This document shows, one piece after another, positions 2,776 to 17,791 of a stretch of 41,872 bases of DNA. How positions within the stretch are numbered: position 1 is the stretch's first letter; every line of letters starts with the position of its first letter. Made by a program: the position numbers and the translations under genes. Source of the DNA: a virus (Duplodnaviria; Caudoviricetes); IMG/VR virus record IMGVR_UViG_3300038675_000167, positions 1-41,872 of that record, one strand, 5' to 3'. The notes beneath the pieces were generated by a model, which saw only the letters and a program-made list of their open reading frames with translations, did no database searches and was not told the origin of the DNA.

Positions 2776-2973
2776 GATGCAGCTTATTTCAAAGTGCAGT
2801 TTATTTGTCAAATTCTGGAAGCCGCGCCGCATGTCAAGTATTAGATAAAAATAAGTAGTTAGCCGTGACTAACTACTTGACAAAAATTGGAATTTAGATG
2901 TTAAACATCTAAAAGTTCCTATTGACTTTTTTAATAAATATGATATAATACTATTGAAAGGAAGGGATGGAAA

Positions 2974-3168
2974 ATGTGGGAAGCAAAAACTAATTTCTAT
3001 GTTAAATGGTCAGGAGAAACTATTTGGGGTGATGAATATTCCGATGTTGCTTACTATGAAGATAAAGAAAAAGCACTTGAATTTTCTGTTAGTTTAATGA
3101 AGAAAAATAGCGTAAAATTTATTAATTTGGAAGAATCTACAATTTGGAGAAGAAAGGAAGAAAAATAA
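2974..3168 (+). CDS. Hypothetical protein (cassette 1)
   Basis: Promoter TTGACT (2922) with TGATATAAT, purine-rich RBS, 64 aa. Confidence 0.75.
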   Translation: MWEAKTNFYVKWSGETIWGDEYSDVAYYEDKEKALEFSVSLMKKNSVKFINLEESTIWRRKEEK

Positions 3169-3169
3169 A

Positions 3170-3376
3170 ATGGTTACTATTGAATGTACTAATGATGAAT
3201 GGCCTATCTATGAAGCATACAGCATGGGGCGCGGATTGCTTTTCCATCTTTTCCGTGGCGGCTGGCGTCGTACATATACTGGCCCCAATGGTGAAGATAT
3301 ACAAGTATATCGCGTGTGGGGCTGTGATGTGGAAAAGTTGCGCTGGCTTGTTGCTGAAAGCGGTCTTGGTAAATAA
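3170..3376 (+). CDS. Hypothetical protein (cassette 1, second gene)
   Basis: Starts 1 nt after the previous stop; TAA lies in the hairpin GGTCTTGGT-AAATA-ACCAAGACC. Confidence 0.75.
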   Translation: MVTIECTNDEWPIYEAYSMGRGLLFHLFRGGWRRTYTGPNGEDIQVYRVWGCDVEKLRWLVAESGLGK

Positions 3377-3498
3377 CCAAGACCATATATTTTTAGATGT
3401 TTAACATCTAACTTTCTCTATTGACATTTCTATATACTTATGATATACTCTATTCATAAAAGAGGAAGGACACCTCATAAACCAGAAAGGGAATTAAG

Positions 3499-3801
3499 AT
3501 GAAGGGAACTGGTATTGTACGCACGGTAGATGAACTGGGTCGAGTAGTTATCCCCAAGGAACTGCGGCGAAACCTGAATATCAAAGAGGGTACGCCGCTG
3601 GAAATGAGTATTGAAGGTAATAAATTGTGTATGGCCAAATATACTCATGGCCCGGTGCTTGACGCAGTAGATGATTTACGCACGGCCATGTTTAATTTAG
3701 AGCATGAATCGTATTCTTCTGATGAGATTTTTTCTGCGGAAGATTACAAGGCACTGCAAATTATTAAAAATAAGATTGAAAAGTATGATATGGAGCAGTA
3801 A
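3499..3801 (+). CDS. AbrB/SpoVT-family transcriptional regulator
   Basis: N-terminus MKGTGIVRTVDELGRVVIPKELRRNLNIKEGTPLE closely matches the AbrB swapped-hairpin signature (TGIVRKVDELGRVVIPIELRR). Confidence 0.9.
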   Translation: MKGTGIVRTVDELGRVVIPKELRRNLNIKEGTPLEMSIEGNKLCMAKYTHGPVLDAVDDLRTAMFNLEHESYSSDEIFSAEDYKALQIIKNKIEKYDMEQ

Positions 3802-3847
3802 GCTCCATATTATGTTTAGATGTTTAACATCTAAAATAAAAAGGCGC

Positions 3848-4009
3848 TTATTCCGCGCCTTTGGGCATGCCTGTGATAATATATTTTTTGCCACAGTAGG
3901 GACAAAAGACAATATGCCCCTTCTCTTTTTTCTTATTAAGGGCGGGCAAGGTTTGGTCATAATGAAGCTTGAAAACTTTTTCACAAAAGATACATTTCAA
4001 AGTCACCAT
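3848..4009 (-). CDS. Small zinc-ribbon protein, 53 aa
   Basis: Manual translation MVTLKCIFCEK...FCPYCGKK...GAE*; two CxxC motifs; TAATG overlap with the upstream gene. Confidence 0.7.
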   Translation of the reverse strand: MVTLKCIFCEKVFKLHYDQTLPALNKKKEKGHIVFCPYCGKKYIITGMPKGAE

Positions 4010-4161
4010 TATTCTTCCACTTCCTTTCCCTTATGCTTGGGCGGCTTGCGGCGCTTGTCAGGAATCACCTTGGTCACAGGGGAGATTGCGCCCCAATCCT
4101 TACGAATACTGCGATAAACTTCGTAATTAGTGCGGGGTTTTGCTTTACTCTTTTTGCTCAT
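4009..4161 (-). CDS. Small basic protein, 50 aa
   Basis: Manual translation MSKKSKAKPRTNYEVYRSIRKDWGAISPVTKVIPDKRRKPPKHKGKEVEE*; RBS and promoter upstream. Confidence 0.7.
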   Translation of the reverse strand: MSKKSKAKPRTNYEVYRSIRKDWGAISPVTKVIPDKRRKPPKHKGKEVEE

Positions 4162-4262
4162 TTCTATCCCTCACTTTCAAATGTATTATAGCATGACTTG
4201 GACGAGAAGTCAATAAGAAAATTTAGATGTTAAACATCTAATGTAGGAAGGGCGCGAAGCCC

Positions 4263-4502
4263 TTACCCGGCAAAGTAATCATACTTATCCAGAATTTCGC
4301 ACATGGCTTTAACGATGGGATTTTCTTCTTCTTCCTCGTCTTCGTCCTCGTCTTCTTCCTCATGGCAATACAAGGTAGTAATCGCACGGGACAGTTCATC
4401 AACTTCTGCGGCGGTGGGGTTTTCAGAAGCGCACATGATGGTAATGGCATAGGCGATAGCGTCCATGATGCAGTAAGTAGTTTCAGCAGTAATCTTTTTC
4501 AT
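4263..4502 (-). CDS. Small acidic hypothetical protein
   Basis: Start moved to MKKITAE after RBS AGAAGGAG; EEEDEDEDEEEEE tract. Confidence 0.75.
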   Translation of the reverse strand: MKKITAETTYCIMDAIAYAITIMCASENPTAAEVDELSRAITTLYCHEEEDEDEDEEEEENPIVKAMCEILDKYDYFAG

Positions 4503-4621
4503 CCTAATTCTCCTTCTGGTTTTAAAGTGTTTTCCTTCACTTGATGGGTATAGTATAGCATATGTGAGAGAGAAAGTCAAGAATGTTATTTAGATGTTTA
4601 ACATCTAATAAAAGAAGGGGA

Positions 4622-4960
4622 TTACTCCCCTTCCTCCTTCTTCTTTTCTTCCCGCGCTTTCTTATCACGGGTAATCTTTTCTTCCTTGGCCTTTGCCTTT
4701 TCGGCCTTGGCGGCCTGCTTTTCGGTGTAGGCATCAATTTCAGTCTGCATCAGTTCGCGGGCGGTCATATCTTCGCGTTCTTCCGCAACAATGACGCCAA
4801 CACGGCAGTAACGCTCTACGCCGTTCTTATCGGTCAGGATAACGCCGTATTGACGGTCATTGATTTTCTGATAGGTAAGGCTGGCTTCTCCATTGATTAA
4901 ATCGCCGAAGATAGTCCCACGCAGGTCGGCATCCACAACGGTCTTAGAAATCTTAGGCAT
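4622..4960 (-). CDS. Hypothetical protein with Lys/Glu-rich C-terminal helix (probable paralog of 7386..7811)
   Basis: Own promoter, RBS and terminator; DKNGVERY vs DKEGNEKW and similar charged tail. Confidence 0.8.
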   Translation of the reverse strand: MPKISKTVVDADLRGTIFGDLINGEASLTYQKINDRQYGVILTDKNGVERYCRVGVIVAEEREDMTARELMQTEIDAYTEKQAAKAEKAKAKEEKITRDKKAREEKKKEEGE

Positions 4961-5094
4961 AATCTCATTCCTTTCTGGTTTGGTAGGTGTCCTTCCTATT
5001 TACAGATAGAGTATATCATAAAATAGGAAGGAAGTCAAGAATTGTTTTTAGATGTTAAACATCTAATTTGGAAAGGTTAGATCACTCTAACTTC

Positions 5095-5394
5095 TTACGC
5101 GGGTGTAAAACCATGTTGTAAAAACCATTTATAGCATACAAAGTCAGGAATTGATTCAAATTCTTTCAACATTTCATTATAAGCCTTAAGAAGATTTTTC
5201 TTTTTTTCTTTTGTATCAGCGTCATAAAATTTTTCAACGCCTTTATCATCCATACCCCAAGCGCAAAGAACAATATACGGAAAATGTCCATTATAAGTTA
5301 CTAAAGCTAATTTAAGTTTTATTTCATTATTGGGATAGTTAGGACACCAATCGTCTGTTACTTTAATCATTTTTTCAACTCGCTTAAAGCCCAT
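5095..5394 (-). CDS. Hypothetical protein
   Basis: Fills its cassette; RBS GGAAGGGGA; start ATG 5394 or TTG 5400. Confidence 0.75.
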   Translation of the reverse strand: MGFKRVEKMIKVTDDWCPNYPNNEIKLKLALVTYNGHFPYIVLCAWGMDDKGVEKFYDADTKEKKKNLLKAYNEMLKEFESIPDFVCYKWFLQHGFTPA

Positions 5395-5498
5395 TTTCAA
5401 ATTCCCCTTCCTTATTTTCTATATATATTATATCATACTATTTGAAAATTGTCAAATTATAATTTTAGATGTTAAACATCTAAATTAAAAAGGGAGAA

Positions 5499-5693
5499 TT
5501 ATTCTCCCATAATTTCTTCTGAAATATTCATCCAGTCAGAATATATTCTGTAAGAAAGGACATCTTCCGCTTCGATGAATCCGCCACAACAACCGCAAAT
5601 CACGCCGAGAAATTCAGAGTCATCAAAGACCCCAATTCCTCCAGTTTCTCCGATTTCAGGGTCATCAACAAAAGCAATCTGTTTATAAATCAT
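5499..5693 (-). CDS. Small acidic protein with ICGCCG motif
   Basis: Start MIYKQIAF after RBS GAGGAG within the upstream gene. Confidence 0.75.
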   Translation of the reverse strand: MIYKQIAFVDDPEIGETGGIGVFDDSEFLGVICGCCGGFIEAEDVLSYRIYSDWMNISEEIMGE

Positions 5694-5694
5694 T

Positions 5695-5883
5695 TTATTC
5701 CTCCTCTGATTCAATCGGGATAATACCGGCGCGGTTAAGAGTATATACACGATACATGTTGGACCTATGCCCGTGCTCGCACTTACAGTCCCACCACTGT
5801 TCCGCGCCTTCATCGGTGAAATTTTCTCCGAAATCTTCTACTTCAAATTCTTCACTACCACAGATAGAGCACTTTTCTTCCAT
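5695..5883 (-). CDS. Small zinc-finger-like protein
   Basis: CxxC ... CxCxH, 62 aa, acidic. Confidence 0.75.
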   Translation of the reverse strand: MEEKCSICGSEEFEVEDFGENFTDEGAEQWWDCKCEHGHRSNMYRVYTLNRAGIIPIESEEE

Positions 5884-5988
5884 TCCCTTTCAACTTCCTT
5901 TCCTTAATTTCATGTATATTATATCATATATCTTAAAGGATGTCAAATATGATTTTTAGATGTTAAACATCTAACATATAAATGCCTC

Positions 5989-6261
5989 TTACACCATAAG
6001 AGGCATTTCTTTTACTGAAATTTTAGCATAAGTTTCTTCTTTGAAAGTAGTTTGAGAAACGCTATCAATCCAAATATATAATTCGTGATGGCCGATTTGT
6101 TCTTCACGGTGGAAAACTAACTTACTATTATATGGCGGGTCAAATGTTCTTACTAAATCATGCGCGGCGGCAAAAGCTGTTTCAAAAGAAGCACAGGCCC
6201 AGTCAATAGTAGGCTTACATCCTTTGAGTTCACAAATTACAAGATAGATTTTTTCAGGCAT
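5989..6261 (-). CDS. Hypothetical protein
   Basis: Fills its cassette; RBS AAAGGAGAG. Confidence 0.75.
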   Translation of the reverse strand: MPEKIYLVICELKGCKPTIDWACASFETAFAAAHDLVRTFDPPYNSKLVFHREEQIGHHELYIWIDSVSQTTFKEETYAKISVKEMPLMV

Positions 6262-6386
6262 TTTTCTCTCTCCTTTCTTTCATATGTAGTATATCATAGA
6301 AAAGAAATAATGTCAATATGAATAATTAGATGTTTAACATCTAATTTCTTCCAAAAAAAGAAAACCGCCTTTCGGCGGTTCCCAGA

Positions 6387-6731
6387 TTATTTCAGACGGT
6401 AGGTGTTAGGCTTGCCCTCGATTTTGACAACCTTATCCGCCCAAGTATGGGTCATGCCATACTGCACCTTACCCTTGCCGAAACCTTCGGGAAGTTTTTC
6501 TTCGGCCTTGGCGTAGATGTCCGCAACGGTCAGGGGCGCGGTAGTACCGGAAAGCACTTCCTTCACGGCATCCCACGCGGTGGCGTATTCATCTTCCTTT
6601 GCGGCCTTCGCGGTGGCGTTCTTGGTGAGTTCGTCCTCGAATACCTGAATGACTTCCAGGCGTTCTTCTTCGGTATGGGTGGCGGTTCCAGTCAGGAGGT
6701 CATAGGCAGTACGGATAGTAGACAGTTTCAT
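6387..6731 (-). CDS. Putative winged-helix DNA-binding protein (paralog of 7982..8305)
   Basis: C-terminus PLTVADIYAKAEEKLPEGFGKGKVQYGM...VVKIEGKPNTY shows a helix-turn-helix plus wing pattern; fold is inferred. Confidence 0.65.
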   Translation of the reverse strand: MKLSTIRTAYDLLTGTATHTEEERLEVIQVFEDELTKNATAKAAKEDEYATAWDAVKEVLSGTTAPLTVADIYAKAEEKLPEGFGKGKVQYGMTHTWADKVVKIEGKPNTYRLK

Positions 6732-6835
6732 ATTTTTCTTCCTTTCTGGTTTGAAGGGTTTTCCTTCCCTTGATTACGGATTTATTATATCACAGTTTCG
6801 GGAAGTTGTCAAGAGTTTTTTTGAAAAATTTTTTT

Positions 6836-6945
6836 CGCAAGGGACTTGCAAGTGAGGTTTGTTACGGTCAGCGGCTCTTTCATTTACCACGTTGCGGGTC
6901 ACGGTCTGGCAAATCGGGCTGTGTTCTTTTCCTCTCCCTTGGAAC
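6836..6945 (-). ncRNA. Candidate structured small RNA 1
   Basis: Palindrome-linked promoter (-35 at 6980-6975) but no RBS-led ORF; transcript begins GUUCCAAGGGAGAGG; CAAGGGA/UCCCUUG closing stem and AUUUGCCA/UGGUAAAU internal stem. Confidence 0.4.
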
Positions 6946-7030
6946 AATTATATATTACCACAACTCTAAGAAAATGTCAATTATATATTTTAGATGTTAA
7001 ACATCTAAATAAAATAACCCGCTATGCGGG

Positions 7031-7285
7031 TTAATATTCGATGTCGATATATACGGTTTCACCAAACAGGTAGGGCGCTTCTTTTAAGATTACTTGGGAA
7101 ATTAAAATTTCTTCTTCTTCATAATCTTCATATTCATCAGGAGGAATCATATAGAGCCCAATAGAACAATCGGGGCCGGGAGTATATTGTTCGTTAAATG
7201 TTCCTTCAATGTCTTTCCCAAATTGTTCCTTAATTTTAGAGAATACTTCGTGTCCATCTACATGGGTATGAGTAGTAAGTTTCAT
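7031..7285 (-). CDS. Small acidic hypothetical protein
   Basis: Start MKLTTHT after AAAGGAAG; fills its cassette. Confidence 0.75.
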   Translation of the reverse strand: MKLTTHTHVDGHEVFSKIKEQFGKDIEGTFNEQYTPGPDCSIGLYMIPPDEYEDYEEEEILISQVILKEAPYLFGETVYIDIEY

Positions 7286-7385
7286 AAATCCACTTCCTTT
7301 CATTTGATGTATATAGTATAGCATAACAAAATTAAAATGTCAATCTCTAAAATTAGATGTTAAACATCTAAATAAAAAAGGGCGA

Positions 7386-7811
7386 TTACTCGCCCTTGCT
7401 CATATCAACTTTAACTTTTTTAAGTTCTTCAAGTGCGGCTTTCGCTTCACGCACTTTTTGCTTTTCTTCGCGCTTCTTTTCCTTTTCCTTTTCGGCGGCT
7501 TCTTTCTTCGCGGCGGATTTAGCTTTCTTCGCGGCGGCTTCCGCAAGGTCGGCGGCATAGTCATCTGCGGCGGCGTTACCATCAAAAGGAATATAACCGC
7601 CGTTACCATCACGGGTTCCACGCGGGGTCGCAACCTTAACGGTCGGCCACTTTTCATTTCCTTCTTTATCGACAAGCGGCAAAGTGATTTCACCGGAAGC
7701 GATGAAGCGGATTTGGGTTTCAGGGTCAAGGTCAAAGTGTTCAGACAGCGCATTGATTACGACTTCAAGAATCTCATTCCGCAGGGCGGTTTCAAGACTG
7801 GCTTTACTCAT
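7386..7811 (-). CDS. Hypothetical protein with Lys/Ala/Glu-rich C-terminus (probable paralog of 4622..4960)
   Basis: Start MSKASLE after GAGAGGAAG; stop in hairpin AAGGGCGA-TTAC-TCGCCCTT. Confidence 0.8.
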   Translation of the reverse strand: MSKASLETALRNEILEVVINALSEHFDLDPETQIRFIASGEITLPLVDKEGNEKWPTVKVATPRGTRDGNGGYIPFDGNAAADDYAADLAEAAAKKAKSAAKKEAAEKEKEKKREEKQKVREAKAALEELKKVKVDMSKGE

Positions 7812-7981
7812 TTTAGCACTTCCTCTCTTCAAGTTCATATAAAGTATATCATAAATTTGAAAAAATGTCAAGAGATATTTTTAGGAAAATTCAAAAAAAT
7901 TTTTATACAGAATTTTGTATATTTATGTGAAAATGAAATTAGATGTTTAACATCTAAATTTCCCCAAAGAGAAAAGAGGGC

Positions 7982-8305
7982 TTACGCCCTCTTATACTCA
8001 TTGACCTTGCCTTCGATTTTCACCACATCGGCGGCCCACAGTTCGCGCAGAGCATACTGAACCTTGCTCTTGGTCAGACCTTCGGGCACGGCGTCCTTCA
8101 CGGCTTCCCACAGTTCCGCAAGCGTCACGGGCTTGTCGGTCAGGGCACCGATAACCACTTCACGGGCGGCGGCATACAGTTCGCGGTTCGCCTGCGCCTT
8201 TTCGGCGTTCTTGTCGAGTTCGGCCTGGAGTTCGGCGTATTCGGCGGCGAGTTCGGGCACGTTCTTCAGGTAGTTAGCAATAGCGACCAGAGTGTTCTTC
8301 TTCAT
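7982..8305 (-). CDS. Putative winged-helix DNA-binding protein (paralog of 6387..6731)
   Basis: PVTLAELWEAVKDAVPEGLTKSKVQYAL...VVKIEGKVNEY aligns ungapped with the 6387 protein. Confidence 0.65.
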   Translation of the reverse strand: MKKNTLVAIANYLKNVPELAAEYAELQAELDKNAEKAQANRELYAAAREVVIGALTDKPVTLAELWEAVKDAVPEGLTKSKVQYALRELWAADVVKIEGKVNEYKRA

Positions 8306-8411
8306 AGGTTTTTCCCTTTCTGGTTTTTAGGACTTTTCCTTGTCCTTTTCATGTATACATTATAGCACGGTTTGTGCTTAATGTCAAGAGGTTTTGAAAA
8401 AATTTTTTCCC

Positions 8412-8475
8412 GTTCCTTGGGGAGATTTCCGTGGCTTTCACAGTCAAGGGCCTCTTTACCCTCTCCCCTTGGAAC
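8412..8475 (-). ncRNA. Candidate structured small RNA 2
   Basis: Own promoter (-35 ending 8509), no ORF; begins GUUCCAAGGGGAGAGG; GUUCC/GGAAC and GGGGAGA/UCUCCCC stems enclose two small hairpins. Confidence 0.4.
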
Positions 8476-8563
8476 AATTATAGTATATCACAAATCAGAA
8501 AAAAGTCAATAGTTTATTTTAGATGTTTAACATCTAATTCTCCGGGAAAGCGCTTTCGCGCTT

Positions 8564-9316
8564 TCATGTGGTGAAGGAGTAAAGACCGTTGCGGATGTAT
8601 TTTTTGGTATAGGTTCCTTTGTAGATTTCCTGACCATCAATTTTCACGGTCAAGGGGTGGTCGGTAACTCGCGGCAGGATTTTTTTCACTTTATATTCTG
8701 TCCCATAGGCCGCGCCACGCTTTACACATTCGAGCAAAATCACGCTTTCAATTTGCGTATCATATAGCCCCATGTGCTTTTCTTCAAAAGAAGTATCACC
8801 TATAATAAAGCGATATACAATTTCAGCACTGCCCTTGTAGTTTCCAGTATCTGTAAAATACTCGTTATCTTCACAAAATTTCTGGTAATCGGATTTACTG
8901 GTGATATATTCCGAAGCATAACCCCAAATATCATAAATACCAACATTTTCCAAGGGATTTATACATTTGAACCAATCGCAATTAAAAGTAAATACTTTAT
9001 CGTCAAAATCGCTATTGTAGGCATATGCTTCGGTAATGCCATACTTTTTAATATCCCGCATCATTTCCTGCATGACATAGCCCCATTTATTCATTTTTGC
9101 GCGGCGCTGGCGCATCAATTGAACGTATAAGGGGCGCTTCTCTTTATAGTAAGCACTTTCAAACAATGGCAGATTATGCCAGATTTGCTCAATGACAAAA
9201 TGCTTTTCAAGTTCTATCAATTCCGAATCAGTATTCAGAATGATATATCCGAGGTCGTAGCAGAAGGGCTTATCCAGTCCAGAAGTTTCAGTATCAAATA
9301 CCATGATATATCCCAC
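8564..9316 (-). CDS. DnaQ-like (DEDDh) 3'-5' exonuclease
   Basis: ExoI FDTETSG, ExoII AYNSDFD, ExoIII HMGLYD; GTG start. Confidence 0.85.
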   Translation of the reverse strand: MGYIMVFDTETSGLDKPFCYDLGYIILNTDSELIELEKHFVIEQIWHNLPLFESAYYKEKRPLYVQLMRQRRAKMNKWGYVMQEMMRDIKKYGITEAYAYNSDFDDKVFTFNCDWFKCINPLENVGIYDIWGYASEYITSKSDYQKFCEDNEYFTDTGNYKGSAEIVYRFIIGDTSFEEKHMGLYDTQIESVILLECVKRGAAYGTEYKVKKILPRVTDHPLTVKIDGQEIYKGTYTKKYIRNGLYSFTT

Positions 9317-9471
9317 AGTTTTTCCCTTTCTGGTTTTTTAGTGTTTTCCTTCACTTCTGATTGAATTATACCATAAGAAAAGCGAATTGTCAACATGAAA
9401 TTTTATACATTTTGTGAATAATTATGCGAGGGGCGGAAATTAGATGTTTAACATCTAAATAAAAAAGGGAA

Positions 9472-9948: not shown

Positions 9949-10044
9949 AATTCATACCCCCTTTTTCATATGTATTATAACATAGGAGGTAAGAAAAGTC
10001 AACTGTGATATTTAGATGTTTAACATCTAAATAAGAAGAAGGCG

Positions 10045-10639: not shown

Positions 10640-10763
10640 ATTTATTCCCTTTCTGGTTTTAGGAAGTTTTCCTTCTTCTTTCTTACGGGATTATTATATC
10701 ATAAAATAAAATGAAATGCAAGTTTTATTTTTAGATGTTTAACATCTAATTCTAAAAGGGTGA

Positions 10764-11213
10764 TTACTCACCCCTCAAAAGTTCTTTCAAGACTTCCAAA
10801 ATCTGGTTTGGTTCATACGCTTCGCCTTTCCATTCTTCACGGTTCCGCGCTTCATCGTCAAACAGAATATCGTTTTCATTTTCCATGAAAGACGATTTAG
10901 GCGTGCCGTAGGCCACGATGCGGATGGCGTCCCAGCTCACCGACCGCAAATGCTTTCTCAACCATACCAACTTCGCGGCGGTCACAGCTTCATCAAACTG
11001 CGGTGTCGGCTCTTTGGAAAGCCAGCTAATAATTCCGATTTGATAGCCAACTTCCCGCAGGCGGTTTAGATAGCGGGCGAGCAGGCTCATATTCAGCATG
11101 GCCGCAGCTTCTGCATAGGGCGTAGGGTCATACGCCCGGAGCATGGGGAGCCAATTTTCTACCGCGTATAAATTCGCAAGAGTGCCGTCAAGGTCAAACC
11201 AAATCGTTTTCAT
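10764..11213 (-). CDS. HAD-superfamily phosphatase (5'(3')-deoxyribonucleotidase-like)
   Basis: Motif I FDLDGTL, motif II IISW, Lys, motif IV LFDD; start MKTIWF. Confidence 0.8.
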   Translation of the reverse strand: MKTIWFDLDGTLANLYAVENWLPMLRAYDPTPYAEAAAMLNMSLLARYLNRLREVGYQIGIISWLSKEPTPQFDEAVTAAKLVWLRKHLRSVSWDAIRIVAYGTPKSSFMENENDILFDDEARNREEWKGEAYEPNQILEVLKELLRGE

Positions 11214-11327
11214 CTTCTTTCCATCCTTTCCTTTCTTACGGGTATAGTATATCATAGAATGATGAAGAAGTCAAGGGAAGGTTTTAGATGTTTAACATCT
11301 AAAATGTTAATAGGGCCGAAGCCCTAT

Positions 11328-11534
11328 TTATCGACTGACAATGGCAACAATGCCAACTACCAGAAGCCAAATGATTGCGATTACAATAACTAAAGCAATC
11401 GGAATCCAGAATGGCGCGAGAACCCATACCCAAGCCCAATCAATGACCCCTACAAGTTTAAGTACAAGAAATACAACGCCAAGCACCGTAGTTAAGGAGC
11501 AACCAGAGGTTACGACCGTTTTCTTTTCTTCCAT
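11328..11534 (-). CDS. Small membrane protein with two hydrophobic segments
   Basis: LKLVGVIDWAWVWVLAPFWI motif typical of small phage membrane proteins. Confidence 0.8.
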   Translation of the reverse strand: MEEKKTVVTSGCSLTTVLGVVFLVLKLVGVIDWAWVWVLAPFWIPIALVIVIAIIWLLVVGIVAIVSR

Positions 11535-11661
11535 TTCTTTTCTCCTTCTGGTTTTAGGAGTTTTCCTTCTCCTTTTTATTTACAAATAGATTATAGCATA
11601 AGAAAATGAAATTGTCAATTATAATTATTAGATGTTTAACATCTAAATATAAAAGCAAGTC

Positions 11662-12060
11662 TTAGACTTGCTTTGAGTAAAAACACCATTTTTCATTGAA
11701 AATATATTCAAGTGTAAAGCCTTCTTTTTCTAATGTATGCCGCATTGCTCCATTAGTAATCCACGGGGTCGCGCCGATTTTTTCTTCATTATATTGATTG
11801 CTGATGTGTTCAATCATTTGCTGGGCATATCCTTTGCCCCGATAATCCGGGTCAACATATAGCCGTTTCATTGCGGTATAATTATAATAAGGCTCTGGGA
11901 CAGCGGCGCAAGTGGAAACAATTTTATCAGCTTCTACTCCAATATACAGGCGTCCAGCCTGAATATCGCTCATTAAAAGTAAAGAGGAAATATATGGAAT
12001 ATTGGTATCAATGGTTCTAACTTCTTCCATATCATTAACGGTTGCCAATCTGATTTCCAT
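11662..12060 (-). CDS. GNAT-family N-acetyltransferase
   Basis: IRLAT start; motif A LYVDPDYRGKGYA; motif B N.AM...EKEGF. Confidence 0.88.
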   Translation of the reverse strand: MEIRLATVNDMEEVRTIDTNIPYISSLLLMSDIQAGRLYIGVEADKIVSTCAAVPEPYYNYTAMKRLYVDPDYRGKGYAQQMIEHISNQYNEEKIGATPWITNGAMRHTLEKEGFTLEYIFNEKWCFYSKQV

Positions 12061-12164
12061 ATAGGGTCACCTTTCCTTTCAATTTACAAATATATATTAT
12101 CATATTGTAATATAAAAGTCAAGAATGAAATTTAGATGTTTAACATCTAAACAAAAAGGCGGCG

Positions 12165-12437
12165 TTAAGGCCGCTCGCTACAAAGAATAACATTGGAATA
12201 ATGTGTCAAATAGGTGATGCCATTCATGGTAAATTGGACACAATCGGAATCATCGAAATCACGCCAGCTCGTGACTTCGCCTTCCAGCAGCTCACCGTTC
12301 CCCAGCTGTACAATCGCCCATTTAAATGACCAGTTCGTATCAATGAGCTGGCGATTATAGCCGCATCCCGTCAAGCAGAAAGAGCCCAGGATTACCAGAA
12401 CGACCGCGAGAATAGCAACTTTCTTCTTCATCTTCAT
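12165..12437 (-). CDS. Predicted lipoprotein
   Basis: Basic N-terminus, hydrophobic stretch, lipobox LTGC. Confidence 0.8.
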   Translation of the reverse strand: MKMKKKVAILAVVLVILGSFCLTGCGYNRQLIDTNWSFKWAIVQLGNGELLEGEVTSWRDFDDSDCVQFTMNGITYLTHYSNVILCSERP

Positions 12438-12531
12438 TACTCCCTTCTTTTTTACAAACATAGTATATCATATATAAATAAAAATGTCAACTTAAAGAAT
12501 TAGATGTTTAACATCTAATAATAAAGGCTCC

Positions 12532-12723
12532 TTACGAAGCCTGTTCAATGGACTTGCGCGTCCAGTCCAGCGGGAAAGTCTTATCTTCAATGTCTACTAC
12601 CAGCAGCCCTACACACTCCTGGTCTTGAATGTAAATCTGCGCGGCGGCAAGCACCTGGGCGAAGGAATCGCAAGTTTCACTCTTACTAAATCCATCATCA
12701 TAGGTAGAAATCAAAGTATACAT
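12532..12723 (-). CDS. Hypothetical protein
   Basis: Fills its cassette. Confidence 0.7.
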   Translation of the reverse strand: MYTLISTYDDGFSKSETCDSFAQVLAAAQIYIQDQECVGLLVVDIEDKTFPLDWTRKSIEQAS

Positions 12724-12830
12724 TCAATTCATCCCCTTTCTTTTTACAATAAGAGTATAGCATATAGGAGAAGAAAAGTCAAGAATGTGTTTTAGATGTT
12801 AAACATCTAAATTATATGCGGTTTCCCGCA

Positions 12831-13055
12831 TTATTCAATTCCAAGATGCGCGGCTGCTACACCGCTCTCGTATCCTTCTTCCCGTCCGAATTTAAGACCT
12901 AAATACATCCCGGCGTTATGCCCTTGAAGATAGGCAAGGTGCATTTTGTTGATTATCTGCGTGGAAGGGCGCTCTTCATCATACATTTTCTCCATGAATT
13001 TTACAAAACCAAAATCAAAACCTTGTTCGCGCAAATCTTCGTACATTTCGTTCAA
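12831..13055 (-). CDS. Hypothetical protein
   Basis: Fills its cassette; GxxxG repeats near the C-terminus. Confidence 0.7.
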   Translation of the reverse strand: MNEMYEDLREQGFDFGFVKFMEKMYDEERPSTQIINKMHLAYLQGHNAGMYLGLKFGREEGYESGVAAAHLGIE

Positions 13056-13150
13056 CTCCTTTCTTTTTTACAAGTAAAGTATATCATAAAAGAGAGAAGA
13101 AGTCAATATATAATTTTAGATGTTTAACATCTAAAATATAGATTTGGGCA

Positions 13151-13456
13151 TTATGCCCAAATCGTTTTTCCATGGTTCGTATATTTTGACTGGTTATGAT
13201 TTACTTTCTTTTTCAGATAGGTGGGGATTTTTTTCTCCCCAGCGAATACAGCGACCAGCTCGCTATAAGTTGTGATATACATTGTTATGATTGTTTGCTT
13301 ATCAGCGGATTTTACAATGGTTACGCCAGTATCGGTGATGCAGGTATAGCAGCCCCTGTAAAACTTTTCCCTTACAATCTGCCCGATACCAATTTTTGTC
13401 AAGATTTTTTCGACCCGTTCGGCCCTCTCTACTTCGCAATGATAACTCATAGTCAT
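13151..13456 (-). CDS. Hypothetical protein
   Basis: Fills its cassette; stop in hairpin GATTTGGGCA-TTA-TGCCCAAATC. Confidence 0.75.
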   Translation of the reverse strand: MTMSYHCEVERAERVEKILTKIGIGQIVREKFYRGCYTCITDTGVTIVKSADKQTIITMYITTYSELVAVFAGEKKIPTYLKKKVNHNQSKYTNHGKTIWA

Positions 13457-13562
13457 GGTGAACTACTTCCTTTCTTCTTTGATGGATACATTATAGCACA
13501 AAAGAAGGAAAAAAGCAAGTCAAGATTTTAGATGTTTAACATCTAAATAAAAAAGGTGGTTT

Positions 13563-13859
13563 TTACCACCGTATTAGTATTACAAGAGGAGCACACTGAG
13601 ACCATTCTGCATGGAAGCCGCTTTCTCTCAATTCTTCTATAACGTAATTCCCGGAAAAGTCTGGCATGGGGAGGTCAATTTTATCTAAATAAAACTTCAA
13701 CCCAATTGTAATTTTACGCCAGCCTTTCGATGCAGTTTCTTTTATATTATCTTCAATAATTTCCATAAGAGTTTTATGTTTTCTCTGAATTTCTTTTTTA
13801 CACAGCAGCGCGGAGGCTTCGGAGTATTTAAGGGCATCTGCGGCAGTAATGTTCATCAT
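13563..13859 (-). CDS. Hypothetical protein (paralog of 14574..14858)
   Basis: ITAADA...IEDNIK.A...GF.AEW...IRW pattern shared. Confidence 0.75.
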   Translation of the reverse strand: MMNITAADALKYSEASALLCKKEIQRKHKTLMEIIEDNIKETASKGWRKITIGLKFYLDKIDLPMPDFSGNYVIEELRESGFHAEWSQCAPLVILIRW

Positions 13860-13979
13860 ACGGGCGTCCTTTCTGGTTTTAAGGATTTTCCTTTCCTTTT
13901 CATTTATATTATATCATATTAAAATGAAATGTCAATAATTATATTTAGATGTTTAACATCTAATCAATAGGGGTAAGGG

Positions 13980-14198
13980 TCATGCCCTTACATATCCATT
14001 CTCTCCCTGGTATTTCCAAGCAAGAATAACTTCATTTCCCTTGTGGTCATATGAAACAATATGGAAGCTTCTTTTCCCTGGATGCGCCAGCTCCTCGAAA
14101 ATAATAGCGTTCTCCGTCCTGCCTACCACCTTGATAGCGAAAGAAGAAGTATACAGCGCGGGCCAGATGTAGACTTTACCAACTTCAAACTTTTTCAT
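13980..14198 (-). CDS. Hypothetical protein
   Basis: Start MKKFEVGKVY after AAGGAGAG. Confidence 0.75.
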   Translation of the reverse strand: MKKFEVGKVYIWPALYTSSFAIKVVGRTENAIIFEELAHPGKRSFHIVSYDHKGNEVILAWKYQGENGYVRA

Positions 14199-14307
14199 CT
14201 TGTTCTCTCCTTTTCTATTTCCTTGGGACAATTATATATTATCATATTAAGTAAAAAATGTCAAGTAGAGTATTTAGATGTTTAACATCTAAAATATAAA
14301 TGCACGA

Positions 14308-14457
14308 TTATTCATCGTGCAACGCTTTCCATTTTTTCATTGCTTCTTCATAGGAACGGGAGTAGAAAATAGTTCTTTGGACGAACTCATTTGTGTTTTC
14401 ATAAATGGCCCAAAAAACGCCGTAAATGTTGTGAATCCGTTCAAGAGTATATTTCAT
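14308..14457 (-). CDS. Small hypothetical protein
   Basis: Start MKYTLER after GGAGGTG. Confidence 0.7.
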   Translation of the reverse strand: MKYTLERIHNIYGVFWAIYENTNEFVQRTIFYSRSYEEAMKKWKALHDE

Positions 14458-14573
14458 GGTTACACCTCCATTTATTTTGTGTTCCTTTGAACAACTATAT
14501 AATAACATAGATAGACAAAGTTGTCAATAGCTGTTATTAGATGTTTAACATCTAATTTTAAAGTTAAGTGGTT

Positions 14574-14858
14574 TTACCACTTAACAAAAAGCACATAATC
14601 GAACCATTGTGCGCTAAAACCATTTTTTTGAACGGAGGTTGCAATATAGTTTTTTGCCATAGTCATATCGGGAAAACCGCTATTGACCATATAAGCGCGA
14701 AGTCCGATATGATTTTCTCGCATTGCATAAGCCGCAGCTCCGCGAATATCACTTTCAATTCTATCAAGAATTGGTTCAGCTTTTTCCATTGTTTCTTTCG
14801 CGTAAGTAAGCGTTGCGGCACGGGCAATATCTCTGGCTTCTTCGGCGGTAATCTTCAT
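14574..14858 (-). CDS. Hypothetical protein (paralog of 13563..13859)
   Basis: Start MKITAEEA; ends GFSAQW...VKW. Confidence 0.75.
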   Translation of the reverse strand: MKITAEEARDIARAATLTYAKETMEKAEPILDRIESDIRGAAAYAMRENHIGLRAYMVNSGFPDMTMAKNYIATSVQKNGFSAQWFDYVLFVKW

Positions 14859-14977
14859 AACAAATCCCCTTTCTGGTTTTAGGCTTCCTTCCCTTTCATT
14901 ACAAATAGAGTATATCATATAAAAATAAAGTTGTCAATATCTATTATTAGATGTTTAACATCTAAATAAATGACCCC

Positions 14978-15220
14978 TCATCCGAGGGGTGTAAGGGCAA
15001 GCAATTCGACATCTTTTGGAAGATCGCTGTCAATATATGTTGCTTTTCGACTTTCTGGCTCAAATTGTACCATGACCGCCCCGGTTGACATGTCCAGCAC
15101 ATCAGTAGGGAAGCCGTAGCTTTCTGTAATCGCGCGAGCTTTGAACACTGCGACCCAAAGAGAATGGAAGCAATAGTTGAAAATCACGGGTTTATCGTTG
15201 TAGTAATTGATTTGATACAT
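14978..15220 (-). CDS. Hypothetical protein
   Basis: Start MYQINYY after GGGAGGG. Confidence 0.7.
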   Translation of the reverse strand: MYQINYYNDKPVIFNYCFHSLWVAVFKARAITESYGFPTDVLDMSTGAVMVQFEPESRKATYIDSDLPKDVELLALTPLG

Positions 15221-15320
15221 TCGTAACCCTCCCTTCAATTTCATATATATAATAACACAATAATGATAAAAAGTCAAGAAGGATTTTTAGATGTTAAACA
15301 TCTAATTTACAAAAGAGCGC

Positions 15321-15596
15321 TCATCGCGCTCTCCATGTCTTACAGAAAAGTAGTGTTCTGTAAGTTATTTTATTAGAAGCCTGCTCGACCTTAATTGAAA
15401 CATCTTCGCCGTGTCGCTGTAAGAACTTAACAGCTTTTGCCAGCGCTCTGTTTGCTTCTTTAATATCGTCAATATTGCGGTAGTAGCAATGTTCCAGCTG
15501 TGTGATATAGTAACGGCTTTCATGGGCATAGAGGAACTGTCCCTCATAGTAAACAAATTCCACCTTGTAAAGATACGTCGGATAATAGTTCTTCAT
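15321..15596 (-). CDS. Hypothetical protein
   Basis: RBS GGGAGGT; fills its cassette. Confidence 0.75.
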   Translation of the reverse strand: MKNYYPTYLYKVEFVYYEGQFLYAHESRYYITQLEHCYYRNIDDIKEANRALAKAVKFLQRHGEDVSIKVEQASNKITYRTLLFCKTWRAR

Positions 15597-15697
15597 GGTC
15601 TTACCTCCCTTTCTTTTATGGTCATATTATACCATGAGTATGAGAAAATGTCAATCTATGTTTTTAGATGTTTAACATCTAAATTATAAAAGGGCGG

Positions 15698-15940
15698 TTA
15701 TTCATCCGCCCTTTCCAATACTTCTTCTTCGGTAATATCCAAACCGCACATTCCAAATACTTCATCAGCATGAAACCAGAACAGATCGTTCAAGTCGTCT
15801 TCGGCCAAGCCATCAGGATACAGCTCTTCCAGCGCAGCTTCGATGGTGTCCCATTCTTCATTGGTCAGCTTACGGGCGACGTCCGCCGCACCCATCCAGA
15901 ACTCAAAGTCACGAATCCGAACTTCACTTTTAATAGTCAT
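15698..15940 (-). CDS. Small acidic hypothetical protein
   Basis: FEFWMGA...LEELYPDG...LNDLFWF; fills its cassette. Confidence 0.8.
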   Translation of the reverse strand: MTIKSEVRIRDFEFWMGAADVARKLTNEEWDTIEAALEELYPDGLAEDDLNDLFWFHADEVFGMCGLDITEEEVLERADE

Positions 15941-16309
15941 TGTCTTTTCCCTCTTTCTTTTTATTCTTTGTCCCCTTCGGACAACTATATATTATCATAA
16001 GGAAAGGAAAAAGTCAAGTATTGTTTTTAGATGTTTAACATCTAAAAAGTAAAAATAAAAATAGGCGGTCACGTTCACCGCCTATCTTGGCTCAATCATC
16101 CCCAACTTCGCCACGACTGAGAATGGGAGAATACCCTCCGTTAATTAGCCGCCGCACAAGGTATTTTGTGCGCTGGCTTACTCTAACCGGGTGGCGTTTC
16201 CATTTTCAACCCTCCCTCTTTCCTTTCGACGTGTATAGTATAGCACAAAATGAAATTAAAGTCAATACGATATTTTAGATGTTTAACATCTAAATTAAAA
16301 GGGGCTGAG

Positions 16310-16525
16310 TTATTTCAACTCAACCCATTCGGGATTTCTCCACCCGTTTTTCAATTGCCATACAGTCCAATCTTCGGCCTTGACAACAAATGTTTCATCG
16401 TTCTTTTTAATCACAAAATTGCCATAGATATTACAAGTGATGGAAGTAAATACCAGTTCGGGCATTTTTTGCTTGATTATTTGAAGCACCTTCCCGAAGT
16501 CCTGAATTGTTGCTATACTGTTCAT
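16310..16525 (-). CDS. Hypothetical protein
   Basis: Start MNSIATIQ after AAGGGAG. Confidence 0.7.
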   Translation of the reverse strand: MNSIATIQDFGKVLQIIKQKMPELVFTSITCNIYGNFVIKKNDETFVVKAEDWTVWQLKNGWRNPEWVELK

Positions 16526-16639
16526 GTTTATTCTCCCTTCTTGTATCGTTCCTTGGAACAATTATATTATATAAGAAAAAAGAGAAAAGTCAAGGGATAA
16601 TTTTAGATGTTTAACATCTAAATCATAAAGGTGTATTGT

Positions 16640-16945
16640 TTAGCAATACACCAAAGACATATTAGACCATTTAAAGACTGAGATTTGATGGTATTTTTTT
16701 CCAATCTCCAAAGCTTCGCGTTTGGTTTTTACGCGGAAGCTGTGGTCAATATACCATACACCTTTTTCATACCAAACGCCGCAAGTCCCATTATACTTTT
16801 GCACAGCTTGTGCAACCTCCGCAGCTGTCCGGCACTCGACGCCGCAATCCGCAACTTGCCAGCCCGTTTTGTAGGTGATAGAATTATACTTTTTAAGAGT
16901 GAGCCCGTCAGATTCGCGCAGGGACATGATTTGGTCTAACAACAT
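16640..16945 (-). CDS. Hypothetical protein
   Basis: RBS GGGAGG; fills its cassette. Confidence 0.75.
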   Translation of the reverse strand: MLLDQIMSLRESDGLTLKKYNSITYKTGWQVADCGVECRTAAEVAQAVQKYNGTCGVWYEKGVWYIDHSFRVKTKREALEIGKKYHQISVFKWSNMSLVYC

Positions 16946-17054
16946 TGTTTTGTCCTCCCTTCATTTTCTGATTGTATTATAACATGGAAAATGAAAAAAG
17001 TCAATACTGATTTTTAGATGTTTAACATCTAAAAAAATAAAGGCGCAAATGCGC

Positions 17055-17117
17055 CTATCGTGGATAAACCCAACCAATCACCCATGCCACAAACAGAACA
17101 GTTACGATAATTTCCAT
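17055..17117 (-). CDS. 20-aa hydrophobic peptide (ends at TAG under the standard code)
   Basis: MEIIVTVLFVAWVIGWVYPR with its own promoter, RBS AAGGGG and terminator AGGCGC-AAAT-GCGCCT. Confidence 0.55.
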   Translation of the reverse strand: MEIIVTVLFVAWVIGWVYPR

Positions 17118-17238
17118 GCGCCCAACCCCTTTCTTTATTGTGACTATATTGTAACATATTATTAAAGAAAAATCAATACTTATTTTTAGATGTTTAACAT
17201 CTAAAAGTATGAAGGAAAAGAAGAAGTTTTCTTCTTCC

Positions 17239-17520
17239 TTAAAACCTAAACCCACAACGTTCTAACTTGTGAAACGCCTTGTCTTCATCATCACAAGGGT
17301 GGAAAGCATGCGGTTCTTCGCCTTCTGGAAAGATTTGCCAACCGACGCAAATGGTAAGGTCTTCATCGGCATAGTAGATGCGAGCATTGTCGCCCAAGAT
17401 ATTTACCAGCTCTTCAAAGTAGCAGCTCGCAGCTTGCATGCAGCTCGCAGCTCGTGTGCAGCTCCCAGCTTGCAGCTCGCCTACGCGTGCGCGCGTGGTA
17501 TCAGTGGTAATAGACTCCAT
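17239..17520 (-). CDS. Hypothetical protein containing a CAGCT-repeat tract
   Basis: Start MESITT after GGAGG; hairpin after the stop. Confidence 0.55.
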   Translation of the reverse strand: MESITTDTTRARVGELQAGSCTRAASCMQAASCYFEELVNILGDNARIYYADEDLTICVGWQIFPEGEEPHAFHPCDDEDKAFHKLERCGFRF

Positions 17521-17604
17521 AGTGTGATCCTCCTTCCAATTTTTGGCATGTACAATCTGGTGACCGGATTTGACAATGGCGAATCTGGAACCAGAATCGA
17601 CATT

Positions 17605-17642
17605 TGTTACGGAATTGTTACAATTGTAACATTTTTGTAACA
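17605..17642. promoter_or_regulatory. Two OmpR-family (WalR-like) direct-repeat boxes
   Basis: TGTTAC-GGAAT-TGTTAC (17605-17621) and TGTAAC-ATTTT-TGTAAC (17625-17641) both fit TGTWAH-N5-TGTWAH. Confidence 0.5.
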
Positions 17643-17791
17643 CTCTTATCCCCTCCCTTTGCTTATATGGTAACATAAAGCGCCCAGATTGTCAAGTTTT
17701 CGGTTTAGATGTTGAACATCTGGCAATATTTGGTCGTTTTTTCGCCAAATAATACATGTAAATGTTACAAAAATATTAAGTTTGTAACATT

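What the first reader, a model, noticed from the sequence alone, without database searches (positions are those of the whole stretch)
2894..17723. A 15-kb array of about 35 autonomous gene cassettes punctuated by an invariant 19-bp palindrome
Seen: each unit is TTAGATGTT(A/T)AACATCTAA, sigmaA promoter, RBS, one (rarely two) small ORF and a terminator hairpin, then the next palindrome. 35 copies are identical except the central base (9 A, 26 T), while promoters and cargo are divergent. Cargo includes AbrB, GNAT, HAD phosphatase, exonuclease, lipoprotein, zinc-finger and acidic proteins, typical of host takeover or anti-defence. Known analogies are integron cassettes, T4-type PeSL modules and mycobacteriophage stoperators, but I do not recognise this motif. 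Inference: a modular, co-regulated and possibly shufflable accessory gene platform. This is the best candidate for a new system here.
Basis: partly seen in the sequence, partly recalled or inferred. Interest (0 to 1): 0.95.

Follow-up and report, generated by a model that had tools for sequence, protein, structure and literature searches.

The report
Palindrome-jointed phage cassettes with nuclease-fold partner
A large bacterial virus keeps about 35 small, likely early genes as separate promoter-gene-terminator units joined by one 19-letter DNA palindrome; related viruses have gained, lost and flipped whole units at that palindrome, which is likely the docking site of a restriction-enzyme-like protein encoded at the head of the array that would switch off or insulate the units.

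Summary
Observation confirmed: 35 exact copies (26 T, 9 A centre) plus one degenerate copy separate 35 terminator|palindrome|9 nt|sigmaA promoter|gene units in a TAG-recoded, SPbeta-like Firmicutes phage. Contig depth suggests the array lies in a ~17-kb terminal repeat. The motif (TTAGAYGT-N3-ACRTCTAA) marks arrays in 23 + 32 IMG/VR contigs. It is helically phased to the -35 box (9, 19, 29, 40 nt), yet just as conserved where no promoter is adjacent. Relatives gain, lose, replace and flip cassettes at the palindrome, but order is kept and no integrase was found (0 of 5 near-complete relatives). A PD-(D/E)XK-fold gene at the array head tracks the motif: 19 of 19 and 24 of 26 motif-bearing phages, 0 of 9 motif-less kin. 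Best reading (0.5): it binds the site as repressor/insulator, and phage Sak4-type recombination uses the site as crossover. Binding is untested. Closest known: T4-type PeSL cassettes and the SPO1 host-takeover module. This scan found the same system before on other DNA (e1-5687344, e1-5747255, e1-5869680). New here: terminal-repeat depth, centre inversions, three-way head-gene/motif covariation, four CIRCE boxes, a candidate RNA cassette.

The parts
2894..17723 (.). Array of 36 palindromes and 35 promoter-gene-terminator units
2913..3815 (+). Units 1-2, reversed terminal block; unit 2 encodes an AbrB-family protein (3499-3801)
3816..3834 (.). Convergent palindrome between two terminators, no adjacent promoter, still exact
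3835..17704 (-). Units 3-35, all transcribed leftwards
6387..6731 (-). Cassette family F0 paralogue 1 (helix-turn-helix-like by eye and weak Atlas leads)
7982..8305 (-). Cassette family F0 paralogue 2; family has 45 genes in 19 of 23 arrays
8564..9316 (-). 250-aa exonuclease-like gene (acidic D-x-E motif by eye; phrog_20187, unknown function); family in 20 other arrays
10764..11213 (-). HAD/5'-nucleotidase-like cassette; family in 18 other arrays
11662..12060 (-). GNAT cassette; absent at this place in contig ..440, flipped in contig ..024
16075..16235 (-). Unit 31: no conserved long ORF, three covarying hairpins; candidate structured RNA
17705..17723 (.). Head-most, degenerate palindrome (3 mismatches)
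17792..17965 (.). Four CIRCE boxes at 49-bp period, alternating with GTTAG-N6-CTAAC-type inverted repeats
18008..18036 (+). sigmaA-type promoter of the head gene
18104..18712 (+). Head gene: 202-aa PD-(D/E)XK restriction-endonuclease-fold protein (D62, E72, K74); candidate binder of the palindrome
18780..18974 (+). 64-aa gene, last TAG-free gene before the recoded module
2000..19000 (.). Putative long terminal repeat (about twice the contig depth; edges approximate)
589..1983 (+). TAG-recoded helicase-like gene, left flank
19174..20532 (+). TAG-recoded gene matching phrog_5767 (labelled sigma factor), right flank; used as lineage marker
21432..24784 (+). Terminase large subunit (30-36% to Geobacillus E3 and SPbeta-like YonF) and portal (phrog_2739), TAG-recoded

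Best explanation
The array is the likely early-gene module of a TAG-recoded SPbeta-like phage, probably inside a long terminal repeat, in which every promoter-gene-terminator unit is bounded by a 19-bp palindrome that is likely bound by the restriction-fold protein encoded at the head of the array and at which whole units have been gained, lost and flipped between relatives. Steps: (1, shown) each unit has near-consensus host sigmaA signals and TAG-free genes, so the host could express it before the code change (timing inferred). (2, inferred) the head protein, made from its own host-type promoter, binds all 36 sites; sitting at about -63 to -45 on a fixed helix face it would compete with RNA polymerase for the upstream region and act as a barrier just after each terminator, switching off and insulating the units. 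(3, shown) exchange points fall in the palindrome. (4, inferred) the exchange is done by the phage's own Sak4/SSB/RecJ/RuvC-type recombination using the only long perfect homology at each joint; because the site is symmetric, units and the 3-nt centre can end up in either orientation. Nicking by the head protein may promote this but is not required.
For: Phasing: first promoter at 8-10 nt in 457, 17-20 nt in 10, 28-31 nt in 19, 39-41 nt in 8 of 595 unit ends (85 none, 16 elsewhere); same peaks in the sister lineage; the 9-nt spacer sequence itself is free (background 3.2/9). Selection on arms: 2 substitutions in 928 arm positions at 58 conserved junctions against 53 in 522 flank positions. Head gene: AlphaFold pLDDT 93.9; the five best VIA matches are ThaI (Z 5.9, rmsd 5.3, 149 aligned), NhoI, MspI, HhaI, I-Ssp6803I; BFVD restriction endonuclease E 2e-4; D62/E72/K74 invariant in 49 of 49. 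Covariation: family found at the head in 19 of 19 motif-bearing arrays tested (17 at E<1e-3 in round 1, all after one iteration) and in the TTTACTGTA-N3 phage L123, in 0 of 9 motif-less kin; in 24 of 26 TTAGACGT-lineage contigs with the head region in view (the 2 misses hold similar proteins by eye), although their flanking marker gene is only 23-31% identical and the F0 cargo family is absent (0 of 32). Motif-less L115 and L119 are supported sisters of motif-bearing phages (99/96, 100/99) and carry an unrelated head-slot protein with a different junction motif; a third head family goes with a third motif. Breakpoints: with a changed neighbour the 9 nt beside the palindrome still travel with the cassette (5' 6.6/9, 38 of 66 at 7 or more; 3' 7.1/9, 42 of 69; background 3.2 and 3.6). 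Recombination kit: AAA_24/TIGR01618 ATPase beside an SSB-like gene, RecJ-like DHH, RuvC-like, ligase. Early timing: 0 TAG in 3663 codons of 38 array and head genes against 141 in 7874 flank codons (the short ORFs of units 31 and 34, which contain or end in TAG, were not counted). Terminal repeat: depth 12.5-13.1 over 761-18138 against 6.2-7.1 over the longest listed contigs at 21.5-37 kb in run X1; CTAG 0 of 15 expected and GATC 4 of 32 in the array, much milder outside.
Against: No binding or cleavage was measured. Head gene and array are linked, so covariation could be co-transfer of one block. The head protein is very divergent among phages with the same motif (14-44% to the window's; 41% between the window and contig ..440 whose flanking gene is 99.6% identical), odd for a fixed specificity. 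Structural Z-scores are under 8 and show only a fold. Promoter-less convergent sites are as conserved (26 of 27 arm-perfect) as promoter-adjacent ones (399 of 417), so a pure operator role is not enough. A MarR/TrmB-type winged-helix gene is conserved in 5 of 5 motif-bearing genomes (also in 2 of 4 motif-less records) and remains an alternative binder. Some changes are not at the palindrome..440 unit 6 is a 75-nt promoter-only remnant and unit 8 breaks at the ribosome-binding site. Flank identity is somewhat lower with changed neighbours (6.6 against 7.6) and the pairs are not independent. The depth step comes from contig means in one run that may be the window's source.
Confidence: 0.5

Rival explanations
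1. The head protein is an active site-specific nuclease that nicks or cuts the palindrome around its 3-nt centre, creating recombinogenic ends that drive cassette excision, capture and inversion (and perhaps destroy incoming arrays of competing phages). Promoter phasing would only keep the bound protein clear of RNA polymerase.
For: Catalytic triad kept in 49 of 49 close homologues; small PD-(D/E)XK homing endonucleases with long sites exist (PMC3943268, passages; I-Ssp6803I among the top five folds). Centre triplets occur as reverse-complement pairs within a genome (TCA 17/TGA 6; TGA 14/TCA 7; TAA 26/TTA 9) and 8 of 14 changed centres at conserved junctions are exact inversions. Variants are genome-specific and cluster along arrays (346 adjacent identical against 316 +/- 5). 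Promoter-less sites stay exact.
Against: The motif Lys is Gly in 4 of 17 distant head proteins from motif-bearing or related phages. Cutting 36 of its own sites needs protection that was not identified. No cassette-skipping joint was seen in run X1 contigs. Cassette order is kept. 7 of the 8 inversions are TAA/TTA, which one substitution also explains.
Confidence: 0.2
2. The palindrome is the operator of another dimeric regulator (the conserved phage MarR/TrmB-like winged-helix gene, or a host factor); the head nuclease has an unrelated job such as host DNA breakdown and merely travels with the block.
For: A 19-bp palindrome with half-sites one helical turn apart fits helix-turn-helix dimers (general knowledge). 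All three junction-motif types share TTAG..CTAA halves (spacers 6, 11, 14), and the winged-helix recognition segment is the same in a motif-bearing and a motif-less genome. Head alleles are swapped between very close phages.
Against: No host regulon: 43 loci in 185,579 species genomes, single scattered hits or arrays on short MAG contigs. No helix-turn-helix family among the 9 families limited to motif-bearing genomes; HTH_3 hits are not shared (4 of 5, different places). F0 is absent from the sister lineage. The winged-helix segment varies among motif-bearing genomes.
Confidence: 0.15
3. No dedicated binder: the site is an AT-rich upstream promoter element and hairpin kept uniform by gene conversion, a PeSL-like linker that simply offers homology.
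For: Centre reads TAA in the direction of transcription in 232 against TTA in 119 sites, placing an A-tract near -52; motif-less kin have A/T tracts there; concerted evolution is visible; the site folds as a DNA hairpin; both arms change together in the sister lineage (422 of 424).
Against: Conversion alone would not hold the same arms across phages whose marker gene is about 50% identical or less, nor explain three head families tracking three motifs. Contig ..066 tolerates single-arm changes that break pairing.
Confidence: 0.1
4. Integron-like system: a site-specific recombinase acting on cassette-borne sites.
For: Breakpoints at the site and flips; the central GTTWAAC resembles the recalled GTTRRRY core.
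Against: 0 of 5 near-complete relatives have PF00589, PF00239 or PF13102; cassettes carry their own promoters; order is kept; the centre varies freely in several lineages.
Confidence: 0.03

Closest known systems
PeSL (promoter-early stem-loop) cassettes of T4-type phages RB49/phi1 (PMC2839356; abstract and sections 13 and 21 read)
   Same: Repeated terminator-plus-sigma70-promoter modules upstream of small ORFans in a hypervariable region; indels and replacements at the modules; no dedicated recombinase found.
   Different: Here a separate, invariant 19-bp palindrome lies between terminator and promoter at a phased distance; PeSL stem-loops vary in position and often overlap the promoter. A candidate partner gene covaries with the motif. 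Firmicutes SPbeta-like phage, one contiguous array. Mini-circles were not shown here.
SPO1 host-takeover module (PMC6873191; passages)
   Same: Cluster of small, strongly expressed early genes in a long terminal region (12.4 kb in SPO1; about 17 kb inferred here).
   Different: The passages seen describe operons, not single-gene units with an invariant joint; no cargo homology was tested and host shut-off is not shown here.
Mycobacteriophage stoperators (PMC9283540; passages)
   Same: Dozens of intergenic copies of one site, proposed to block initiation and elongation.
   Different: Stoperators are 13-bp asymmetric, genome-wide, bound by a monomeric HTH repressor of temperate phages; these sites are palindromic, confined to one array, and no such repressor or integrase was found.
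Integron cassette arrays, including attC clusters in phages (PMC9892861; abstract only)
   Same: Single-gene cassettes exchanged at a repeated site.
   Different: No IntI, own promoters, 19-bp perfect palindrome instead of attC, order kept.
PD-(D/E)XK type II restriction and homing endonucleases (ThaI, MspI, HhaI, I-Ssp6803I; PMC3943268 passages)
   Same: Fold and catalytic triad of the head protein.
   Different: No cognate methyltransferase or intron context was looked for or seen; target and activity untested; proposed target is many self sites.
TAG-recoded gut phages (bioRxiv 10.1101/2021.08.26.457843; passages)
   Same: TAG read as Gln in structural genes, standard code elsewhere.
   Different: Clade (Agate, Jade, Sapphire and so on) not assigned; the passages seen do not mention the array.

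Membership tests
PeSL cassettes | Composite terminator stem-loop plus sigma70-type promoter upstream of ORFans | tested here: met
PeSL cassettes | Gain, loss and replacement at the module | tested here: met
PeSL cassettes | T4-type phage; poly-G/poly-C stem-loop in or near the promoter, no invariant palindrome | tested here: not met
   SPbeta-like terminase and portal; separate invariant palindrome
PeSL cassettes | Mini-circles | tested here: inconclusive
   Only contigs were available; no such joint in X1
Integron | Tyrosine integrase IntI | tested here: not met
   0 of 5 near-complete relatives, controls rang in 14 of 14 and 6 of 14
Integron | attC/attI sites and mostly promoterless cassettes | tested here: not met
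   33 of 35 units have their own promoter; site is a 19-bp perfect palindrome; no attC model was run
Integron | Reordering of cassettes | tested here: not met
   tau 0.98-1.00 in 8 of 10 pairs printed; a few relocations and flips
Stoperators | Asymmetric site oriented with transcription, genome-wide | tested here: not met
   Palindromic; all sites of G001 (34) and G003 (32) lie in one array (other rows not all listed)
Stoperators | Repressor-dependent block of elongation | not testable with these tools
   needs transcription assays
SPO1-type terminal-repeat host-takeover module | Location in a long terminal repeat | tested here: inconclusive
   about twofold contig depth in one run
SPO1-type terminal-repeat host-takeover module | Small genes with strong host promoters expressed early | tested here: inconclusive
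   signals and TAG-free coding met; no RNA data
SPO1-type terminal-repeat host-takeover module | Products shut off host functions | not testable with these tools
   needs expression tests
PD-(D/E)XK nuclease superfamily (head protein) | Restriction-endonuclease fold | tested here: met
   (Z 4.6-5.9, consistent class at the top)
PD-(D/E)XK nuclease superfamily (head protein) | D..(D/E)xK catalytic motif | tested here: met
   D62, E72, K74 in the window and 49 of 49; Lys replaced in 4 of 17 distant members
PD-(D/E)XK nuclease superfamily (head protein) | Sequence-specific binding or cleavage of the palindrome | not testable with these tools
   needs biochemistry
CIRCE/HrcA box | Same 9-N9-9 inverted repeat as in front of host heat-shock genes | tested here: met
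   3 exact and 1 one-mismatch copy; same box upstream of hrcA and htpG in candidate-host MAGs

The most novel reading that the evidence does not exclude
An integrase-free, phage-encoded cassette system: a restriction-fold enzyme recognises a palindrome between every early gene, both switching the genes off and nicking the joints so that the phage's recombination machinery captures, deletes and inverts whole cassettes; enzyme family and motif have co-diversified into at least three pairs across a large group of recoded Firmicutes phages.
Probability: 0.2. Interest if true: 0.93.

Novelty: new variant of a known kind. Interest (0 to 1): 0.74.

Why it matters
It makes an old question directly testable: how large lytic phages turn over accessory genes without an integrase, and whether linker sites have a dedicated protein (left open in PMC2839356, section 21). 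Here there is one sharp site, one named candidate protein and natural variants of both. If binding holds, it is a restriction-fold protein used as a multi-site regulator. The arrays are also a pre-sorted library of likely host-directed genes (705 genes, 95 families, 170 singletons in 23 arrays).

Tried and rejected
Host regulon: GTDB scan gave scattered single hits and short MAG contigs with phage-type arrays. Integrase, resolvase, RecA: 0 of 5 each. F0 paralogues as universal binder: absent from 32 of 32 sister-lineage contigs; no PDB match. Phyletic profile by blastp: 89 core families, 9 limited to motif-bearing genomes, none helix-turn-helix; only one motif-less genome is complete. Homodimer prediction for the head protein: no answer. 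Single-sequence fold: pLDDT 41.9, discarded. Foldseek PDB: nothing at E<=0.001. Pfam and PDB sequence searches with the head alignment: nothing useful. Rfam: 0 at gathering in 1-20000; one chance-level hit for unit 31. tRNA: none in the window. PADLOC: 0 of 13. No RNA holder listed. Joints in run X4 are short-sided and come from relatives, not used; joints near 17033-17180 in X1 have 20-26-letter sides at repeats, not used. Small-share runs were not used for habitat. Literature: 10 searches found no description of this array; the motif string itself was not searched and subscription journals are mostly missing; no supplements were read. PMC3008403 was not held.

Full report
OBSERVATION. The pattern TTAGATGTTWAACATCTAA has 36 matches in the window at up to 3 mismatches, against 0.07 expected. 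35 are exact (centre T 26, A 9) and the last, at 17705, is degenerate. Between them lie 35 units. Read in the direction of transcription each joint is: hairpin that often holds the stop codon, a short T-rich stretch, the palindrome, 9 nt, then a sigmaA-type -35 box, 16-17 nt and an extended -10 (33 of 35 units, 32 with TG). Units 1-2 read on +, units 3-35 on -. Most cargo has no family hit; AbrB, GNAT and a HAD-like nucleotidase are supported.

THE GENOME. The window is a whole 41.9-kb virus record. Outside the array genes open only with TAG read as Gln: 141 TAG in 7874 codons of 16 flank genes, 0 in 3663 codons of 38 array and head genes (the short ORFs of units 31 and 34, which contain or end in TAG, were left out). 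Terminase and portal are SPbeta-like (30-36% to Geobacillus E3 and YonF-type proteins, 115 records; phrog_2739). Recoding of late genes is known (bioRxiv 10.1101/2021.08.26.457843, passages), so TAG-free genes under host promoters are likely early. In run X1, which may be the source, one 16.4-kb contig spans 761-17207 at depth 12.5 and the next at 12.3-13.1, whereas the longest listed contigs at 21.5-37 kb are at 5.7-7.1 and 1-768 at about 5; a contig across 18203-21156 is at 7.96, which puts the step near 18.7-19.0 kb. That fits a terminal repeat of about 17 kb, as for the SPO1 host-takeover module (PMC6873191, passages), but contig means from one run are weak evidence. CTAG (0 seen, 15 expected) and GATC (4, 32) are more depleted in the array than outside; CTAG is also more depleted in the arrays of 5 of 5 relatives. 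Part of the CTAG loss follows from TAG avoidance.

THE MOTIF IN RELATIVES. The exact 19-mer occurs in 23 IMG/VR contigs, nearly always as arrays; about 870 stored stretches are estimated in metagenomes for the N3 form. The family consensus is 8-bp arms with a 3-nt centre; the centre is nearly fixed in some phages and free in others. A sister lineage uses TTAGACGT-N3-ACGTCTAA, both arms changed in 422 of 424 sites in the 32 contigs analysed from the first 80 of 119 loci. In G001 and G003 all sites fall in the array. In 185,579 bacterial and archaeal genomes the W-centred form gave 43 loci: single scattered hits and arrays on short contigs of Acutalibacteraceae, Oscillospiraceae and Bacillota MAGs, a weak host hint and no regulon.

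PHASING AND CONSERVATION. The first promoter lies 8-10 nt from the site in 457, 17-20 in 10, 28-31 in 19 and 39-41 in 8 of 595 unit ends (85 without a call, 16 elsewhere); the sister lineage repeats these peaks. The spacer sequence is free while its length is not, which points to something held on one helix face relative to RNA polymerase. At 58 junctions conserved between 7 close pairs the arms show 2 substitutions in 928 positions, the flanks 53 in 522. Against a pure operator: sites between two terminators with no promoter within 48 nt are arm-perfect in 26 of 27, like promoter-adjacent sites (399 of 417).

CASSETTE TURNOVER. Against contig ..440 (94% identical outside the array), 25 units are shared in the same order; window units 19, 24 and 26-27 are missing, two extra units and one reversed unit are present, and several are replaced. 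When a cassette's neighbour differs, its 9 nt next to the site still match its orthologue (5' 6.6/9, 3' 7.1/9; same neighbour 7.6; background 3.2 and 3.6; pairs not independent), so exchange falls in the palindrome, not in the shared promoter boxes. Exceptions exist (a 75-nt remnant and a break at a ribosome-binding site). Order is kept (tau 0.98-1.00 in 8 of 10 pairs printed of 14 tried; the 2 low values involve a circular contig opened in the array). Single units are found flipped: the GNAT family, F77, F8 and F38. Centres come as reverse-complement pairs within genomes and variants cluster along arrays, signs of strand exchange at the site in both orientations. No tyrosine recombinase, serine resolvase or RecA was found in 5 of 5 near-complete relatives, but their core holds an AAA_24/TIGR01618 ATPase next to an SSB-like gene, RecJ-like, RuvC-like and ligase genes. 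That AAA_24/TIGR01618 equals Sak4 is recalled; PMC5928155 (passages) shows Sak4 anneals diverged strands and usually lies next to ssb.

THE PARTNER. Earlier scan note e1-5869680 pointed to a nuclease-fold gene at the array head; I tested it. The 202-aa gene at 18104-18712 has 47 homologues without Pfam family, folds at pLDDT 93.9 and matches restriction and homing endonucleases best, at modest Z. The family is present in 19 of 19 motif-bearing arrays whose head was in view (5 of the 23 contigs had no head region fetched) and in a phage with a related 21-bp N3 palindrome, and in 0 of 9 motif-less kin. It is also present in 24 of 26 sister-lineage contigs with the head in view, though their marker gene is 23-31% identical and a common cargo family is gone. 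On the marker-gene tree motif-less L115 and L119 are sisters of motif-bearing phages; they and L127/L130 share a second head-slot family (GCCGGC and/or GTTAG-N6-CTAAC junctions in L115, L119, L127; too little array in view for L130), and L124/125/126/128/129 a third (ATTAGA-N12-TCTAAT in 4 of the 5). Neither is detectably related to the first by profile comparison. Against: linkage, low identity among same-motif phages (14-44%), and loss of the motif Lys in 4 of 17. A conserved MarR/TrmB-like gene is the main alternative.

MECHANISM. Most likely (0.5) the head protein binds every joint, turns the strong early promoters down and insulates units, while ordinary phage recombination uses the 19-bp identity as crossover. 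Active cutting as the driver (0.2), another binder (0.15), no binder (0.1) and an integron (0.03) are the rivals. Anatomy, breakpoints, phasing and covariation are shown; binding, repression, timing and the terminal repeat are inferred.

COMPARISON AND NOVELTY. It works like T4-type PeSL modules (PMC2839356, abstract and sections 13, 21) placed in an SPO1-like terminal module, but adds an invariant phased palindrome and a covarying restriction-fold gene; it fails the defining tests for integrons and stoperators. Ten literature searches found no description (listed under Tried and rejected; the motif string was not searched; no supplements read). This scan had noted the same system in other genomes; those notes are not independent support. 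Recalled and from no call: the CIRCE name and consensus (checked against host loci), the GTTRRRY core, UP-element positions, and helix-turn-helix operator geometry. Verdict: real, new variant of a known kind, interest 0.74.

Noticed in passing
window 17792-17965: Four CIRCE (HrcA) boxes at 49-bp period between the two divergent head promoters, 42 nt upstream of the head gene's -35 box; 1-2 copies at the same place in contigs ..440..381..733..178..024, G003 and L127. Position suggests a decoy that would titrate HrcA and raise host chaperones rather than a repressing operator. One paper search listed no such case.
   Followed up: partly
window 16075-16235 (-): Unit 31 has no conserved long ORF but three hairpins with two-sided changes in 4 aligned phages (5 such pairs outside the terminator); in L117 the first stem has a different sequence that still pairs. 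Candidate structured RNA carried as a cassette; no Rfam family.
   Followed up: partly
window 2859, 5077, 17823, 17921, 19105: GTTAG-N6-CTAAC-type inverted repeats at both ends of the array, the same type that marks cassette joints in motif-less kin G006 and G007; may be an older junction or terminus signal.
   Followed up: partly
window 17033-17185 (-): Unit 34 encodes a 20-aa hydrophobic peptide ending in TAG, so its length would depend on the code switch.
   Followed up: no
window 1990-2890: AT-rich non-coding stretch with long inverted repeats (2356-2404, 2426-2514) beside the helicase-like gene; possible origin or genome-end signal.
   Followed up: no
window 6387-6731 and 7982-8305: Paralogous family F0, 2-4 copies per array (45 genes in 19 arrays), with a conserved helix-turn-helix-like C-terminal part; no curated family.
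   Followed up: partly
window 33530-41872 (+): One open frame of at least 2781 aa with 81 TAG codons running off the contig, probably a tail protein.
   Followed up: no
L205:4501-5343 (G002): 238-286-aa protein with zinc-knuckle-like and OB-like parts by eye, in 5 of 5 motif-bearing genomes and none of the 4 motif-less records; no Pfam hit.
   Followed up: no
L117:8554-8593 (G002 154909-154969): Three palindromes in tandem at 21-bp steps at the array head of G002.
   Followed up: no
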